Shown: positions 16,604 to 19,887 of the stretch, in pieces
Numbering within the stretch: the stretch's first letter is position 1
Layout of the letters: every line of letters begins with the position of its first letter
Origin: Patescibacteria group bacterium
GTDB lineage: Bacteria > Patescibacteriota > Patescibacteriia > 2-01-FULL-39-33
DNA length: 64,000 nt
Direction: 5' to 3'
NCBI GenBank assembly: GCA_041649575.1
Contig: JBAZMW010000003.1
Coordinates: 58,102 to 122,101, forward strand
Notes under the pieces: generated by a model
Database searches by the model: none
What the model was told of the DNA's origin: nothing
The model's input: the letters and a program-made list of their open reading frames with translations, nothing else
Program-made: the position numbers and the translations under genes

Positions 16604-17623
16604 TTAAAAAACCCGTTCTAACTTATATAGCCAATAATAATTTAATAATCTCTCACGCACCTTATGACCATTGCCGTGGCTTAACAGCCCTAAATATGAT
16701 TGCAAAGTCGCGTTAGTCGGACTAATCTTAATTCTATTTATGGACTTTCTCTTGGTGGTATTCCGCAATACCCGATGGTCAGTAAAATGAACCCAACCAA
16801 GATAATCAACTCCCGAGGCCATTGTTCTTATGGATATTTTATTGGGATGAAGAGTGAGCTTTAATTCCTTAGACAAAAATTGACCTATTTCTGGTAATAT
16901 TTTTTCTAGATACTCTTTGTCGTCATTGAGAACCATAAAATCATCGGCATAGCGCAAGTAATATTTCACTTTTAATTTATGTTTTACCCATTGATCAAAA
17001 TCATTCATGTAGACATTGGCCAGTAGTTGCGAAGTGAGATTGCCAAGTGGCAGCCCGATATCCTGGCCGTAAATCTTACTATCATAACTCTCAATTACCT
17101 CGTCGAGCAGACTCATAATATCTCGGTCGGGAATATAGCGGGATAAGCTATCCATAAGGATTTTATGATCGATACTGTCAAAAAATTTCCTGATGTCACA
17201 TTTCAAAACCCAGCAGGTGCGAGAGTGATTTTTGCTTGTTTTGTAGGCCAAAGCACGGAATCTGTTCATCGCTTTATGCATTCCCTTATCATTGCGGCAA
17301 GAGAAAGAATCGGCGATAAAAGTCCTGTCAAAAAAGGGATAAAGAATTCGATAGATAGTATGATGAATCAAGCGGTCGCGGACGCTGGCTTTGTGGATAT
17401 GCCGACGCTTAGGATCGGTTATATAGAAATCAACATAGCCGCCATGACAGTATGTTCGATTGGCCAAATCCTCGTTTAATGATAAAATATTGTCGAGCAG
17501 GTTACGAGAAAATATTTGGACGTCCAGCTTCATTTTTTTGCCAACGATAAATTCTCGCCACGCGGAAAATAAATTTTCTAAATCAATAATCGAATTATAG
17601 TTATGGCTCAGTTGGATTTTCAT
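16604..17623 (-). CDS. DGR-type reverse transcriptase
   Basis: RT motifs including YADD (RYADDFMVL) and the DGR-specific GLPLGNLTSQLLANVY ([IV]GxxxSQ); N-terminal LENLFSAW. The start is chosen at the internal ATG (MKIQLSH...) downstream of the G10 tract; the track ORF extends to 17683. Confidence 0.85.
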   Translation of the reverse strand: MKIQLSHNYNSIIDLENLFSAWREFIVGKKMKLDVQIFSRNLLDNILSLNEDLANRTYCHGGYVDFYITDPKRRHIHKASVRDRLIHHTIYRILYPFFDRTFIADSFSCRNDKGMHKAMNRFRALAYKTSKNHSRTCWVLKCDIRKFFDSIDHKILMDSLSRYIPDRDIMSLLDEVIESYDSKIYGQDIGLPLGNLTSQLLANVYMNDFDQWVKHKLKVKYYLRYADDFMVLNDDKEYLEKILPEIGQFLSKELKLTLHPNKISIRTMASGVDYLGWVHFTDHRVLRNTTKRKSINRIKISPTNATLQSYLGLLSHGNGHKVRERLLNYYWLYKLERVF

Positions 17624-17639
17624 AATAATTCCTTTAAGT

Positions 17640-17649
17640 CCCCCCCCCC
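17640..17649. repeat. homopolymeric C10/G10 tract in the RT 5-prime region / avd-RT divergent intergenic region
   Basis: 10 consecutive C on the plus strand; lies about 17-26 nt upstream of the proposed RT start codon. Confidence 0.9.
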
Positions 17650-17674
17650 AACGGGTTTTGATAATTTTCCAATT

Positions 17675-17995
17675 TTGACGCAATTAAAGGAAGGGTATAA
17701 ATTGTGGCACGGCTTCTTAAATCGCCTGCCTCGCACTACGCGCTATACTCTGGGGACAAAAATCGATAATATCTTTACGGATTTAATTGCCACCGCCTTA
17801 ACCGCCAAGTTTGCCAGACAAGATGAAAAAATTATCAGGCTAAAACAAATCAGCGAGGGTCTTGATCATCTCAAATACTTTCTGACGATACTGTGGGAAA
17901 TAAAAGGGATAGACAGTGGCAAACTCTCCGCTTTGGGCAGTCGTCTGGCTGCCGTCGGAAAAATGGTCGGCGGATTACTCAAGTCAATTTCATAA
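17675..17995 (+). CDS. Avd-like accessory variability determinant (four-helix-bundle / 23S-IVS protein family)
   Basis: LPRTTRYTLGTKIDN and LGSRLAAVGKMVGGLLKSI match the FPKEEKYxLGxQIRR ... LxxLIKSL pattern of the four-helix-bundle family used as DGR Avd. The start is uncertain: TTG at 17675 or 17702 (the track ORF starts at 17603 and would overlap RT). The gene is on the strand opposite to RT, TR and target. Confidence 0.55.
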   Translation: MTQLKEGYKLWHGFLNRLPRTTRYTLGTKIDNIFTDLIATALTAKFARQDEKIIRLKQISEGLDHLKYFLTILWEIKGIDSGKLSALGSRLAAVGKMVGGLLKSIS

Positions 17996-18040
17996 AAAGG
18001 AAAAGAAGGTCTCAAAAACCTTCTTTTCCTTTTTATTTTC
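17996..18040. terminator. perfect 15-bp stem hairpin (aaaggaaaagaaggt / accttcttttccttt, 7-nt loop) + T-run
   Basis: starts 1 nt after the avd stop codon and lies 16 nt 3-prime of the TR on the other strand. Confidence 0.7.
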
Positions 18041-18047
18041 ACATCAT

Positions 18048-18155
18048 CAGGAGCACGAAGCCGATATTGTCGTTGCCATTCTCGTCCCAGTTGTTGCAGT
18101 TGAGCCCGTTGTCGTCGAAGTTGCCAGCAATGAGACGATTGCCGTCGTTCAAGGT
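18048..18155 (-). repeat. DGR template repeat (TR), 108 bp
   Basis: aligns to 18606-18713 with 21 mismatches; 20 of them are adenines on the minus (sense) strand of this copy. Read in the VR frame it encodes TLNDGNRLIAGNFDDNGLNCNNWDENGNDNIGFVL with 10 AAC/AAT codons. Confidence 0.85.
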
Positions 18156-18158
18156 CAA

Positions 18159-18557
18159 TCAATAGTTGTGAATATTGTCTTCCAAAACACCGCCCATTGA
18201 GTTCTCTCTGGGCTGAACCGTATTTGGGGTCATGAGCCCACCAACAATAAACACGGGGTGTGAAAAATGTCCTTGGGATAATTTCCTTGCTCTGGCGCGA
18301 TCCTTAGACAACGCCATTCGGAAGAATAAATTACCTTGTTCTGCGGGCTGGCGTCCGTGGAGACCAGCTAAGTTTAACTTCGCAGTAATGGTAATTATAT
18401 CACAATCGAAAATTTTTATGAAGATAGATATCTGCATTAGCTCCTCGGCTCGAAAATTTAAAAGATTACTTTTACATTTCTCTCGCTCTACGTCGCTTAT
18501 AAAAAAGAGAGGCCTCGGTGCGATGACCAAGGTCTCAAGTGTCCAAGTGTCCAACAA
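18159..18557 (-). CDS. hypothetical ORF between VR and TR (coding status doubtful)
   Basis: 132-aa ORF at the position where avd usually sits, but no four-helix-bundle-like sequence; may be non-coding TR-upstream sequence. Confidence 0.2.
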   Translation of the reverse strand: MLDTWTLETLVIAPRPLFFISDVEREKCKSNLLNFRAEELMQISIFIKIFDCDIITITAKLNLAGLHGRQPAEQGNLFFRMALSKDRARARKLSQGHFSHPVFIVGGLMTPNTVQPRENSMGGVLEDNIHNY

Positions 18558-18581
18558 TCCGAGGCGAGAGCGCCAAGGATC

Positions 18582-19310
18582 CTACTTACCGAGCTTCTCC
18601 ACCCCCAGGAGCACGAAGCCGATCATGCCGTCGCCACCCTCGCCCCAGTCGCGGCAGCGGAGCCCGACGCCGCCGAAGCCGCCAGCAATGAGACGACTGC
18701 CGTCGCGCAAGGTGTCAGACGCCATGTAGAGACGATTCAGCGGTACACGTTCGCCCGTACGCTTGAAATGCGCGAGGATAAGAGCGAACTGAAGCTGAAT
18801 CGAGCCGAATGTTGTGGCGTGATTACCGGGCAATTCGTAGCGCTGTTTGAGTTCGGCGCGGTGCTTTTCCATCGCTTTGATGTTCTTACCCGTGCTGTTT
18901 TCTGCCAGGCGAGGAATCCAGAACACCAAGCAATCGTCGGTGGGGTTGTCGTTGAAATTCCAGCTCTGGAGGTAGCCGAGATTCTCGTAGCAAGGACCGA
19001 CAATCGGGGCGTGCTTCTTCAACGTGAAGCCCTGCTTGATAAGCCATACAACAGGCCCCGTGTAGCCCATCAGAGCCGCCAGTTTACGCCAGGGGGCGAG
19101 ACGGTCTGTGAACTGTGGGAACTGCTCCAGCATCTTACTATCGGATAAGGGAATGGCGAAAGTATTCGCGATTTCTTCTTGCACGAGTGCGGCGAGGAAC
19201 TCTTTCACCTTTCCTGGCTTATCGGCAAAAACCGACATCTCTTCATCGCTGAGGCCATTAAGTGTGGCCAATACCGATACTGCACTTGCCTTACGGTCTG
19301 TCGTCTTCAT
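18582..19310 (-). CDS. DGR target (variable) protein, C-terminal VR; likely C-type-lectin / FGE-like fold
   Basis: 242 aa, about 58% GC; VR occupies the last about 43 codons before the stop (...GFVLLGVEKLGK*); the TR carries AAC codons at the variable sites. Confidence 0.8.
   Translation of the reverse strand: MKTTDRKASAVSVLATLNGLSDEEMSVFADKPGKVKEFLAALVQEEIANTFAIPLSDSKMLEQFPQFTDRLAPWRKLAALMGYTGPVVWLIKQGFTLKKHAPIVGPCYENLGYLQSWNFNDNPTDDCLVFWIPRLAENSTGKNIKAMEKHRAELKQRYELPGNHATTFGSIQLQFALILAHFKRTGERVPLNRLYMASDTLRDGSRLIAGGFGGVGLRCRDWGEGGDGMIGFVLLGVEKLGK
18606..18713 (-). repeat. DGR variable repeat (VR), 108 bp, at the 3-prime end of the target gene
   Basis: TR homolog in which TR adenines are replaced by G/C/T; encodes TLRDGSRLIAGGFGGVGLRCRDWGEGGDGMIGFVLL; followed by GC-rich GGGGTGGAGAAGCTCGG (IMH-like). 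Confidence 0.85.
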
Positions 19311-19512
19311 AACTTGCCTTTCTGCCTACCTGAGGCAGTATTCCCAACCACCATGGCCGAGAAAAAGATGGGGCATTCAGTGGTCCCAACTTTCTTTCTG
19401 CATAATTTACCCTGTAGGAATAGGCACTCAAATTCCACAGGGTTTATCTTAAATTAAACAAAAAGAAAGCTGGAACCTAAAACTTATCAATATATTAATG
19501 AACTAATAATAT

Positions 19513-19541
19513 ATTATACGGCATATGACAAAATTTGTCAA
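19513..19541 (-). promoter_or_regulatory. perfect consensus TTGACA-N17-TATAAT promoter upstream of the DGR target gene
   Basis: on the minus strand: TTGACA (19541-19536), 17-nt spacer, TATAAT (19518-19513); about 200-nt structured leader to the ATG at 19310. Confidence 0.55.
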
Positions 19542-19567
19542 TCAAATAACTATCCTTAATAAATATT

Positions 19568-19649
19568 TGGGCCGGGAGGGATTCGAACCCCCGAAGGCAA
19601 AGCCAAGAGATTTACAGTCTCCCCCATTTGACCGCTTTGGTACCGACCC
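19568..19649 (-). tRNA. tRNA-Tyr (anticodon GTA), class II with long variable arm
   Basis: manual fold: acceptor GGGTCGG/CCGGCCC (one G-U), anticodon stem GGAGA/TCTCT with loop CTGTAAA, long variable arm TGGCTTTGCCTTC, T arm GGGGGTTCGAATCCCTC. Confidence 0.75.
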
Positions 19650-19668
19650 ATACTAACTGTTATACTTG

Positions 19669-19741
19669 AGCCGTTGATCGGATTTGAACCGATGACCTAC
19701 TCCTTACCATGGAGTTGCTCTACCAACTGAGCTACAACGGC
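19669..19741 (-). tRNA. tRNA-Thr (anticodon GGT)
   Basis: manual fold: acceptor GCCGTTG/CAACGGC, D arm TAGCTCAGTTGGTAGAGC, anticodon stem ACTCC/GGAGT with loop ATGGTAA, T arm ATCGGTTCAAATCCGAT. Confidence 0.8.
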
Positions 19742-19770
19742 ATATAGATTGTTTTGATTAATTACAGCTT

Positions 19771-19841
19771 ACAATCAGACTGGATCCAACTGAGCTATCC
19801 GCCTCGGCTCGCCTTGCTCGCCAAGGCGAGACGGGCAACGG
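19771..19841 (-). pseudogene. decayed tRNA paralog (tRNA-Thr-like acceptor GCCGTTG + 38-nt GC hairpin insertion + D arm TAGCTCAGTTGG, no T arm)
   Basis: the 5-prime acceptor and D arm are identical to the adjacent tRNA-Thr(GGT); the anticodon and T arm are not recognisable; flanked by 26-bp direct repeats (19735-19762 / 19836-19862). Confidence 0.35.
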
Positions 19842-19887
19842 CTTATAGATTGTTTTTGATTTAAGTTTTTTTATTCTAACAAATAAT

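What the first reader, a model, noticed from the sequence alone, without database searches (positions are those of the whole stretch)
16604..19541. Complete diversity-generating retroelement: RT, Avd, TR, VR and a C-terminally diversified target gene
The RT (16604-17623, minus) carries YADD plus the DGR-specific GLPLGNLTSQ motif. Two 108-bp repeats (18048-18155 and 18606-18713) differ at 21 positions, 20 of which are adenines in the first copy when read on the minus (coding) strand. Read in frame, that copy (TR) is full of AAC codons (TLNDGNRLIAGNFDDNGLNCNNWDENGNDNIGFVL). The second copy (VR) is the last about 43 codons of a 242-aa GC-rich ORF (TLRDGSRLIAGGFGGVGLRCRDWGEGGDGMIGFVLL). This is the textbook signature of adenine-directed mutagenic retrohoming. 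CPR genomes are known to be DGR-rich, but this cassette is complete, with its own consensus promoter on the target. The target has no recognisable signal peptide, so its function is open.
Basis: partly seen in the sequence, partly recalled or inferred. Interest (0 to 1): 0.9.

Follow-up and report, generated by a model that had tools for sequence, protein, structure and literature searches.

The report
Complete CPR-type diversity-generating retroelement
This is a complete and apparently working diversity-generating retroelement of the kind already known to be common in Patescibacteria (CPR), ordinary as a class. However, its lineage carries two features I could not find described: a slippery repeat inside the accessory gene avd, and a conserved structured RNA in front of the template repeat (TR).

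Summary
TR (18048-18155) and VR (18606-18713), both on the minus strand, are 108-nt repeats with 21 mismatches. Twenty of these lie at TR adenines (p = 6e-14). All 29 TR adenines sit at codon positions 1 or 2.

- The RT's best solved relative is Bordetella phage BPP-1 Brt.
- An Avd gene is present.
- In 85 homologues the variable residues fall exactly on the TR AAC/AAT codons.

One correction: avd is on the opposite strand, head-to-head with the RT. This is architecture B3, TR-(avd)-RT, which was already reported for 90% of CPR DGRs. The element is therefore a new member of a known kind.

Two lineage-wide features emerged beyond the finding.
- A C/G homopolymer, or in four relatives a (CA)n or (GA)n repeat, lies in the 5' coding part of avd in 63 of 73 related loci. 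Its length differs between otherwise identical elements and sets the avd reading frame. The window's copy (C10) is in frame.
- A roughly 108-nt RNA domain with strong covariation lies immediately 5' of TR and is absent from Rfam.

The parts
19513..19541 (-). Promoter-like site of the target gene (TTGACA-17-TATAAT, 12/12). It is followed by a ~200-nt conserved, structured 5' leader (19311-19512).
   Evidence: The leader is 81-89% identical in L001, L002, L003, L006 and L106 and contains a ~28-bp stem.
18582..19310 (-). Target gene, 242 aa. It has an N-terminal helical domain (~1-80) and a divergent C-type-lectin/FGE-like domain that carries the VR at its C-terminus. There is no signal peptide or TM segment.
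18606..18713 (-). Variable repeat (VR), codons 200-235 of the target.
18596..18605 (-). G-rich VR 3' flank (GGGGTGGAGA). It differs from the TR 3' flank (ATGATGTGAA). This makes it an IMH versus IMH*-like boundary, conserved in L005, L007 and L009.
   Evidence: The assignment as IMH is an inference.
18513..18532 (-). Terminator-like hairpin plus T-run downstream of the target gene.
18394..18422 (-). Promoter-like site (TTCATA-17-TATAAT with TG, 10/12), candidate promoter of the TR RNA.
   Evidence: This is a consensus match only.
18164..18271 (-). Conserved structured RNA domain immediately 5' of TR: a 12-bp closing helix enclosing two hairpins.
   Evidence: Covariance model R1 was built without the window's own sequence. 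It scores 62.3 bits, E 8e-12, and this is its only hit in the window. Covariation is shown.
18048..18155 (-). Template repeat (TR): 29 adenines, all at codon positions 1-2.
17992..18036 (.). Perfect 19-bp hairpin with flanking A and T runs, lying between the TR 3' end and the convergent avd stop. It is a candidate bidirectional terminator or DGR-RNA 3' element.
17603..17995 (+). avd (130 aa), inverted relative to RT, TR and VR. Its ATG is the antisense of RT codon 7 (CAT).
   Evidence: Pfam bAvd 46 bits (cut-off 40). NCBIfam DivGenRetAVD 55 bits (cut-off 80). The arrangement is conserved in all related loci that hold enough upstream sequence.
17640..17649 (+). C10 homopolymer (G10 on the RT strand). 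It lies inside the 5' coding part of avd (codons 13-16, SPPP) and 16 nt upstream of the RT ATG. In the window it keeps avd in frame.
16604..17623 (-). DGR-type reverse transcriptase, 339 aa (motifs LGNLTSQ and YADD).

Best explanation
The region is a complete cellular diversity-generating retroelement of the Patescibacteria (CPR) lineage, with the architecture target/VR - TR - (avd) - RT.

Most likely mechanism.
- A non-coding TR RNA is made on the minus strand, probably from the promoter-like site at about 18400. It consists of a conserved structured 5' domain (18271-18164), the 108-nt TR and a 3' hairpin.
- The RT, together with Avd, copies TR into cDNA and misincorporates opposite the 29 template adenines.
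- The cDNA replaces the VR, the last 36 variable-scaffold codons of a 242-aa protein.
- This randomises up to 21 residues (those whose TR codon carries an adenine) on a C-type-lectin-like ligand-binding domain, while the scaffold residues (G, L, F, C, W, R) stay fixed.
- The target has no export signal. It is therefore most likely a cytoplasmic, or unconventionally displayed, variable binding protein of unknown ligand.

What is shown: the TR/VR adenine pattern, the homology of RT and Avd, the fold, and family-wide variability at the TR-adenine codons.

What is inferred: the transcript ends, the role of the 5' RNA domain, current activity in this strain, and the biological ligand.
For: - TR/VR: 20 of 21 mismatches are at TR adenines, p 6e-14. 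All adenines are at codon positions 1-2.
- RT: full-length best match is BPP-1 Brt, 8ub7_A E 9e-38. The group II intron model scores 154 bits, far below its 300-bit cut-off.
- Avd: Pfam bAvd is above its cut-off.
- Family: in 85 homologues, column entropy is 2-3.5 bits at residues whose TR codon carries an adenine at position 1 or 2 (3.0-3.5 bits at the AAC/AAT codons), except T200 (0.94 bits). It is below 1 bit at most scaffold positions.
- Architecture: identical in L005, L007, L009 and L106, and in all of the ~70 related RT loci with enough upstream sequence. Across 56 loci, 1009 of 1100 TR/VR mismatches are at TR adenines.
- Activity in relatives: near-identical elements from different samples differ almost only in the VR at TR-adenine positions. 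L047 vs L049 show 17 such differences, and L112, L113 and L114 carry three VR alleles on one TR/RT.
- Integrity in the window: all ORFs are intact and avd is in frame.
[quoted passage not shown] A Patescibacteria-restricted DGR clade has targets without TM or known domains (PMC8144416).
Against: - There are no read-level or multi-assembly data for this strain. The only other assembly found is identical. A degenerate VR/TR pattern scan of metagenome contigs found nothing.
- One internal non-adenine mismatch exists (T>G). This is common in CPR DGRs according to PMC5758913.
- NCBIfam's Avd model scores below its cut-off (55 vs 80 bits).
- The inverted repeat downstream of the VR is weak (z -1.2).
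- Ten of 14 genomic target homologues have no RT and no TR RNA domain within 6 kb, so the protein family does not always travel with a DGR.
Confidence: 0.9

Rival explanations
1. It is a genuine DGR but a fossil. The parts are still recognisable, but retrohoming no longer happens in this strain, and the VR differences date from past activity.
For: There are no population data for this strain. One non-adenine TR/VR mismatch exists. In many relatives avd is out of frame at the repeat tract. Many target homologues exist without a nearby DGR.
Against: RT, avd and the target are all intact, and avd is in frame here. The catalytic YADD and LGNLTSQ motifs are intact. All TR adenines remain at codon positions 1-2 and the TR has no decay. 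Close relatives diversify in situ.
Confidence: 0.2
2. It is not a DGR. The 'TR' would be a decaying partial duplicate of the target's 3' end that happens to lie next to an unrelated RT (group II intron, retron, Abi or DRT defence RT).
For: NCBIfam's best-scoring models for the RT are group II intron RT, Drt3a, Drt2 and retron RT. NCBIfam returned no DGR RT family in this scan.
Against: All those NCBIfam hits are far below their cut-offs (154 vs 300 bits, 84 vs 200, and so on). The best solved homologue is BPP-1 Brt over its full length. The adenine bias has p 6e-14. Avd is present. The same cassette with adenine-biased TR/VR pairs recurs in 56 related loci.
Confidence: 0.02
3. This concerns the repeat tract in avd. 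The C/G run would have no switching role. It would be only a poly-proline linker, an element of the RT 5' UTR, or homopolymer assembly noise. Avd would then be translated independently of run length, from a start downstream of the run or via constitutive RNA-polymerase slippage.
For: Only 26 of 63 tract-bearing loci have an upstream ATG in frame, close to the one-third expected by chance. In the P0166 element both observed lengths (G10, G11) are out of frame, yet three VR alleles exist on the G10 background. Length calls of 9-14-nt homopolymers in short-read assemblies are error-prone (general knowledge).
Against: - In four loci the tract is replaced at the same position by (CA)n or (GA)n, which code for different peptides.
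- 62 of the 65 G/C runs of 8 nt or longer in 603 kb of related loci lie at this one site.
- In all 8 loci with no repeat at all, the RT-overlapping ATG is in frame with the Avd core. The chance of that is about 1.5e-4.
- Run length is the only difference in 1.4-4.1 kb between otherwise identical elements in two independent cases.
Confidence: 0.45

Closest known systems
CPR/Patescibacteria DGRs: architecture B3 TR-(avd)-RT (Wu et al. 2018, PMC5758913) and DGR clade 2 (Roux et al. 2021, PMC8144416); first described by Paul et al. 2017, which I could not read
   Same: - Order and orientation of VR, TR, inverted avd and RT.
- Patescibacterial host.
- Target with a C-terminal VR and no TM segment or known domain.
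- Occasional non-adenine substitutions.
   Different: Nothing substantive: this is a further member. The papers I could search do not mention the repeat tract in avd or the RNA domain 5' of TR. They also do not name this ~240-aa target family. It may fall among their unclassified CPR VR groups, but I did not check that.
Bordetella phage BPP-1 DGR (mtd-avd-TR-brt), the prototype
   Same: - Homologous RT (E 9e-38, full length) and Avd.
- Adenine-specific TR-to-VR mutagenesis.
- AAC-rich TR.
- VR at the C-terminus of a C-type-lectin-fold protein.
- A G-rich VR 3' boundary that differs from the TR 3' boundary.
   Different: - This element is cellular, not phage-borne. No relative of the target was found in viral contigs, and the RT is at most 38% identical to any phage RT.
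- avd is inverted and overlaps the RT start head-to-head.
- The conserved structured RNA lies 5' of TR. In BPP-1 it lies in the 3' spacer between TR and brt (RT-10 motif, PMC5737381).
- The target is a small soluble protein rather than a tail-fibre tip.
Treponema denticola TvpA (PDB 2y3c) and FGE-type C-type-lectin DGR variable proteins
   Different: Sequence identity is 11% and there is no Pfam FGE-sulfatase hit. Foldseek is not significant. There is no lipoprotein or signal sequence. The target also has a distinct N-terminal helical domain of unknown function.
Phase-variable contingency genes with poly-G/C tracts (Neisseria, Campylobacter, Haemophilus, Bordetella)
   Same: - A homopolymer of 8-14 nt in the 5' coding region that sets the reading frame.
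- Length polymorphism between otherwise identical sequences.
- Substitution by other simple repeats at the same site.
   Different: The gated gene here is an accessory factor of a mutagenesis machine, not a surface antigen or a restriction-modification gene. Switching has not been demonstrated. Out-of-frame lengths predominate in assemblies.

Membership tests
Diversity-generating retroelement (DGR) | Near-identical TR/VR pair whose mismatches fall almost only at TR adenines | tested here: met
   20 of 21 mismatches are at TR adenines. 20 of 29 adenines are changed. Hypergeometric p 6.5e-14.
Diversity-generating retroelement (DGR) | RT of the DGR clade rather than group II intron, retron, Abi or DRT | tested here: met
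   The best PDB relative is 8ub7_A, which is BPP-1 Brt, at E 9e-38 over residues 11-312. Group II RTs score 2e-21 and retron RTs 1e-4 to 1e-20. The LGNLTSQ and YADD motifs align with the bRT motifs IGSLTSQ and YMDD. All NCBIfam non-DGR RT models score well below their cut-offs. No formal phylogeny was run.
Diversity-generating retroelement (DGR) | VR inside the coding sequence of a target gene, with TR adenines placed at codon positions 1-2 (AAC/AAT codons) | tested here: met
   The VR covers codons 200-235 of 242. Adenines by codon position are 13/16/0. There are 10 AAY codons.
Diversity-generating retroelement (DGR) | Accessory variability determinant (Avd) gene next to the RT | tested here: met
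   Pfam bAvd scores 46 bits (cut-off 40). NCBIfam DivGenRetAVD scores 55 bits, below its 80-bit cut-off. The gene is conserved head-to-head with the RT in related loci.
Diversity-generating retroelement (DGR) | IMH at the VR 3' end, IMH* at the TR 3' end, and a GC-rich inverted repeat downstream | tested here: inconclusive
   The VR flank is CTGGGGGTGGAG and the TR flank is CTGATGATGTGA. This contrast is conserved in 4 relatives. The downstream DNA hairpin is small and not better than shuffled sequence (z -1.2). Only 34% of DGRs have such a repeat (PMC5758913).
Diversity-generating retroelement (DGR) | Ongoing VR diversification in the population | not testable with these tools
   No reads are available. 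The only other assembly is identical and the pattern scan found nothing. Relatives do show it: L047 vs L049 and L112/L113/L114.
CPR DGR, architecture B3 / DGR clade 2 | Core order TR-(avd)-RT with avd on the reverse strand, in a Patescibacteria genome | tested here: met
   TR 18048-18155(-), avd 17603-17995(+), RT 16604-17623(-). The identical target protein is annotated as Patescibacteria group bacterium. The definition comes from PMC5758913 and the clade from PMC8144416.
C-type-lectin-fold DGR variable proteins (Mtd/TvpA/TaqVP type) | VR embedded in a CLec/FGE-like fold, with invariant scaffold residues and hypervariable ligand-face residues | tested here: met
SSR-mediated phase-variable gene (for avd) | Simple repeat in the 5' coding region whose length sets the frame, with length polymorphism within a clone or population | tested here: inconclusive
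   - The tract is present in 63 of 73 loci at one site.
- The frame depends on its length.
- Length is the only difference between identical elements in 2 cases.
- Reversible switching, the true Avd start codon and read-level heterogeneity could not be tested.

The most novel reading that the evidence does not exclude
In this very large Patescibacteria DGR lineage, production of full-length Avd, and hence mutagenic retrohoming, is gated by a hypermutable or slippery simple repeat. The repeat is C7-14, or (CA)n or (GA)n in four relatives. It lies between the avd start codon, which overlaps the RT start on the opposite strand, and the Avd core. The diversity generator itself would then be stochastically switchable between on and off, which would let a useful VR variant be locked in. 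Separately, the DGR RNA of this lineage carries its conserved protein-binding structure 5' of TR rather than in a 3' spacer as in BPP-1. The window's copy (C10, in frame) would be in the ON state.
Probability: 0.4. Interest if true: 0.7.

Novelty: new member of a known kind. Interest (0 to 1): 0.45.

Why it matters
As a DGR, this is one more example of a class already known to be abundant in CPR bacteria. It adds a well-defined, confidently modelled 240-aa target family: a C-type-lectin-like fold, no export signal, and about 110 homologues, all from CPR MAGs or metagenomes.

The two lineage-level features are more useful.
- How DGR activity is restrained, so that a good variant is not overwritten, is an open question. 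A frame-setting repeat in avd is a concrete mechanism that can be tested with reads or reporter constructs.
- The conserved 5' RNA domain (23 pairs, 19 with compensatory changes) gives a defined RNA partner for structural and biochemical work on a non-phage DGR. Its layout differs from the only system studied in depth.

Tried and rejected
- **VR variants of the same element.** I scanned metagenome contigs with a degenerate pattern that had N at every TR adenine. It found no hits, not even the source contig.
- **Exact-protein look-up of the window RT.** This returned only one other assembly, which is identical to the window.
- **P0191 look-up.** Ten assemblies all carried G9. The result is uninformative, because that RT ORF was called through the run, so other lengths could not be retrieved. 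Their VRs were also identical. The P0224 group was likewise invariant.
- **Phage origin.** Viral contigs hold no relative of the target. The best phage RT is only 38% identical.
- **Spacer ORF 18159-18557(-), 132 aa.** This is not a conserved protein. The tblastn hits cover only its last ~30 codons, which coincide with the conserved RNA domain. There is no Pfam hit.
- **Rfam.** At gathering thresholds and at E up to 10, only tRNAs and spurious hairpin matches appear. None of the RT-1 to RT-19 motifs matches.
- **Foldseek against the PDB.** Nothing significant.
- **Cruciform downstream of the VR.** Weak.
- **TR 3' hairpin as a universal element.** Rejected. In many relatives TR abuts the avd stop codon with no hairpin.
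- **Adenine depletion as the cause of the target's high GC.** Rejected. A and T are equally low on the coding strand.
Full report
**1. The observation**

Read on the minus strand, they differ at 21 positions.
- Twenty differences are adenines in the first copy (15 A>G, 3 A>C, 2 A>T).
- The remaining one is a T>G immediately next to an A>T.
- Twenty of the 29 adenines in that copy are changed. The probability that at least 20 of 21 mismatches fall on adenines by chance is 6.5e-14.
- All 29 adenines are at codon positions 1 or 2 of the frame shared with the second copy, and ten codons are AAC or AAT.
- The second copy is codons 200-235 of the 242-codon ORF 18582-19310(-).
- No other copy and no target paralogue exists in the 64 kb window.

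The RT ORF 16604-17623(-) carries IGLPLGNLTSQ and RYADDF. A perfect TTGACA-17-TATAAT match lies at 19541-19513(-).

**2. The components**

*RT.* It hits Pfam RVT_1. Among solved structures its best match, over the full length, is 8ub7_A (E 9e-38). Group II intron RTs score 2e-21 and retron RTs 1e-4 to 1e-20. The aligned part of that chain (291 residues) is 100% identical to brt of Bordetella phage BPP-1. All NCBIfam RT models (group II, Drt2-5, retron, AbiA) score far below their cut-offs. The protein has no maturase or endonuclease extension.

*Avd.* The ORF 17603-17995 matches Pfam bAvd above its cut-off. It matches NCBIfam DivGenRetAVD below cut-off. It lies on the plus strand, opposite to RT, TR and VR. 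Its ATG is the antisense of RT codon 7 (CAT), so the two genes overlap head-to-head by 21 nt.

*Architecture.* Wu et al. 2018 define architecture B3 as TR-(avd)-RT. [quoted passage not shown] The inversion is therefore the known hallmark of CPR DGRs, not an oddity.

*Host.* An identical target protein is recorded as a hypothetical protein of a Patescibacteria group bacterium MAG.

**3. The target**

The 242-aa protein has no Pfam, NCBIfam or PDB sequence match. It has no hydrophobic segment (maximum Kyte-Doolittle 19-residue mean 1.07).

It has 112 homologues. All that carry a name come from Patescibacteria MAGs (Buchananbacteria, Magasanikbacteria, Uhrbacteria), and most are about 240 aa long.

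In an 85-sequence alignment:
- Residues whose TR codon carries an adenine at position 1 or 2 have entropies of 2-3.5 bits (3.0-3.5 at the AAC/AAT codons), with D/G/S/N/Y/R/H spectra. The one exception is T200 (0.94 bits).
- The intervening G, R, L, F, C and W residues are at least 90% conserved.

- Then FGE-like proteins: PvdO, CarF, OvoA, EgtB, SUMF2.

Residues 1-80 form a separate helical domain of unknown function. Roux et al. 2021 already noted that targets of the Patescibacteria-restricted DGR clade 2 typically lack TM or other known domains (PMC8144416).

**4. Relatives and activity**

Fourteen genome loci encode target homologues.
- L005, L007 (two target genes sharing one TR) and L009 carry the same cassette with adenine-biased TR/VR pairs.
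- The other ten have no RT within 6 kb and no TR-associated RNA.

The closest relative is L106 (RT 85% identical). It has the same layout and 14 TR/VR mismatches, all at adenines.

The RT lineage is very large.
- At least 7980 proteins score E <= 1e-60.
- More than 566 metagenome loci match. Among the best 80, every locus with enough upstream sequence has avd inverted against the RT.
- In 56 loci I could pair TR with VR. In these, 1009 of 1100 mismatches are at TR adenines.

Activity in nature is visible in relatives.
- L047 and L049 are near-identical over 6.1 kb, yet differ at 17 VR positions, all of them TR adenines.
- L112, L113 and L114 share an identical RT, avd and TR but carry three different VR alleles.

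For the window's own strain I found only one other assembly, and it is identical. A degenerate pattern scan found nothing. Current activity here is therefore inferred, not shown.

**5. A repeat tract in avd (not part of the finding)**

The window's only G/C run of 7 nt or longer is C10 at 17640-17649. It lies in avd codons 13-16, between the ATG and the Avd core, and 16 nt upstream of the RT ATG.

*Conservation of the site.*
- The same site carries a C run of 7-14 nt (mode 9-10) in 59 related loci.
- It carries a (CA)n or (GA)n repeat in four more, giving 63 of 73 loci.
- Across 603 kb of related loci, 62 of the 65 G/C runs of 8 nt or longer are at this junction.

*Reading frame.*
- In all eight loci with no repeat at all, the RT-overlapping ATG ('M.QL.FH') is in frame with the Avd core. 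The chance of that is about 1.5e-4.
- With a tract present, an upstream ATG is in frame in only 26 of 63 loci.

*Length polymorphism.* Tract length is the only difference between otherwise identical elements in two independent cases.
- L087 (G11) vs L093 (G10): over 4.1 kb there is one substitution elsewhere.
- The P0166 element: G11 in two assemblies and G10 in four, and this is the only variable column in about 1.4 kb.

The window's closest relative L106 is out of frame. The window itself is in frame.

*Reading.* This is the signature of a contingency locus. A hypermutable or slippery tract gates Avd, and so gates the DGR.

*Caveats.*
- Out-of-frame lengths predominate.
- In the P0166 element both observed lengths are out of frame, yet VRs have diversified on that background.
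- The true Avd start codon is unknown.
- RNA-polymerase slippage or a downstream start could make DNA length irrelevant.
- Homopolymer lengths in assemblies are error-prone.

*Literature.* I found no mention of such a tract in the DGR papers I could search. Paul et al. 2017 was not available.

**6. A structured RNA 5' of TR (not part of the finding)**

The ~110 nt immediately upstream of TR are conserved across the lineage.

On a 41-sequence alignment, RNAalifold predicts a 12-bp closing helix around two hairpins.
- There are 23 pairs, and 19 of them have compensatory double changes.
- 95.7% of cells are paired, against 74.6% in shuffles.
- The covariation score is 0.73, against 0.29 in shuffles and at most 0.24 with slid partners.
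- Many G-U pairs place the structure on the TR-sense strand.

A covariance model built without the window and its three closest relatives finds the window at 18164-18271(-). It scores 62.3 bits (E 8e-12), and this is its only hit in 64 kb. It also finds L005, L007 and L009 just 5' of their TRs.

Rfam 15 has no match. It includes the RT-1 to RT-19 motifs, of which RT-10 is the BPP-1 TR-brt spacer (PMC5737381).

I infer that this domain is the lineage's equivalent of the BPP-1 spacer RNA, placed on the other side of the template.

The 19-bp hairpin after TR (17992-18036) is strong in the window. It is absent in many relatives, where TR abuts the avd stop codon.

**7. Verdict**

It is a new member of a known kind: a CPR-type B3 DGR with a divergent C-type-lectin-fold target. 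On its own it deserves much less than 0.9.

The avd repeat tract and the 5' RNA domain are, as far as I could check, undescribed. Both are directly testable, and they raise the overall interest to moderate.

Noticed in passing
window 17640-17649 (+); same site in L007, L009, L015-L094, L106, L111-L116: There is a C/G homopolymer of 7-14 nt, or a (CA)n or (GA)n repeat in L045, L056, L066 and L069. It lies in the 5' coding part of avd, just upstream of the RT ribosome-binding site. It is present in 63 of 73 related loci. Its length sets the avd frame, and it differs between otherwise identical elements.
   Followed up: yes
window 18164-18271 (-): A conserved three-helix RNA domain lies directly 5' of TR. 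It has 23 pairs, 19 with compensatory changes. It is not in Rfam.
   Followed up: yes
window 18582-19310; L001-L014, L106 target genes: The target gene is much more GC-rich than its genome in 12 of 13 loci (window 56% vs 42%, L012 61% vs 33%). This holds outside the VR too. A and T are equally depleted on the coding strand. The pattern is unexplained; possible causes are repeated transfer or a compositional constraint.
   Followed up: partly
window 19311-19541 (-): The target's promoter and ~200-nt leader are 81-89% identical in L001, L002, L003, L006 and L106. The leader contains a ~28-bp stem. The window has a 37-nt insertion in the apical loop of that stem, forming its own hairpin (CCCTGTGG...CCTACAGGG). 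Its function is unknown.
   Followed up: partly
window 19567-19741 and about 19784-19856 (-): tRNA-Tyr and tRNA-Thr lie directly upstream of the target promoter. Further upstream, a 21-nt stretch ending in the first 7 nt of tRNA-Thr is duplicated (19735-19755 and 19836-19856). It is followed by a tRNA-like 5' fragment (GCGGATAGCTCAGTTGGAT) that ARAGORN does not call. This may be a remnant of an insertion at a tRNA gene.
   Followed up: no
L001-L004, L006, L008, L010-L014: Ten of 14 genomic homologues of the target have no RT, no Avd and no TR RNA domain within 6 kb. L004 has two tandem paralogues. Either a distant DGR acts on them in trans, or the family persists without one.
   Followed up: partly
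L115 vs L111-L114, L116: L115 has the same avd and RT as the others (only the G-run length varies among these assemblies) but a different TR and 5' RNA domain. This is either a swap of the TR module or a chimeric assembly.
   Followed up: no
L099 (columns about 1160-1285 of the alignment): One assembly of the P0191 element has runs of N upstream of avd, where the other assemblies agree. I did not check whether the gaps coincide with its VR. If they do, they could reflect population heterogeneity that broke the assembly.
   Followed up: no
L007 2271-2828 and 6001-6696: Two target genes 3.7 kb apart both match one TR, with 15 and 17 adenine mismatches. This is a one-TR, two-VR member of the same target family.
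   Followed up: partly
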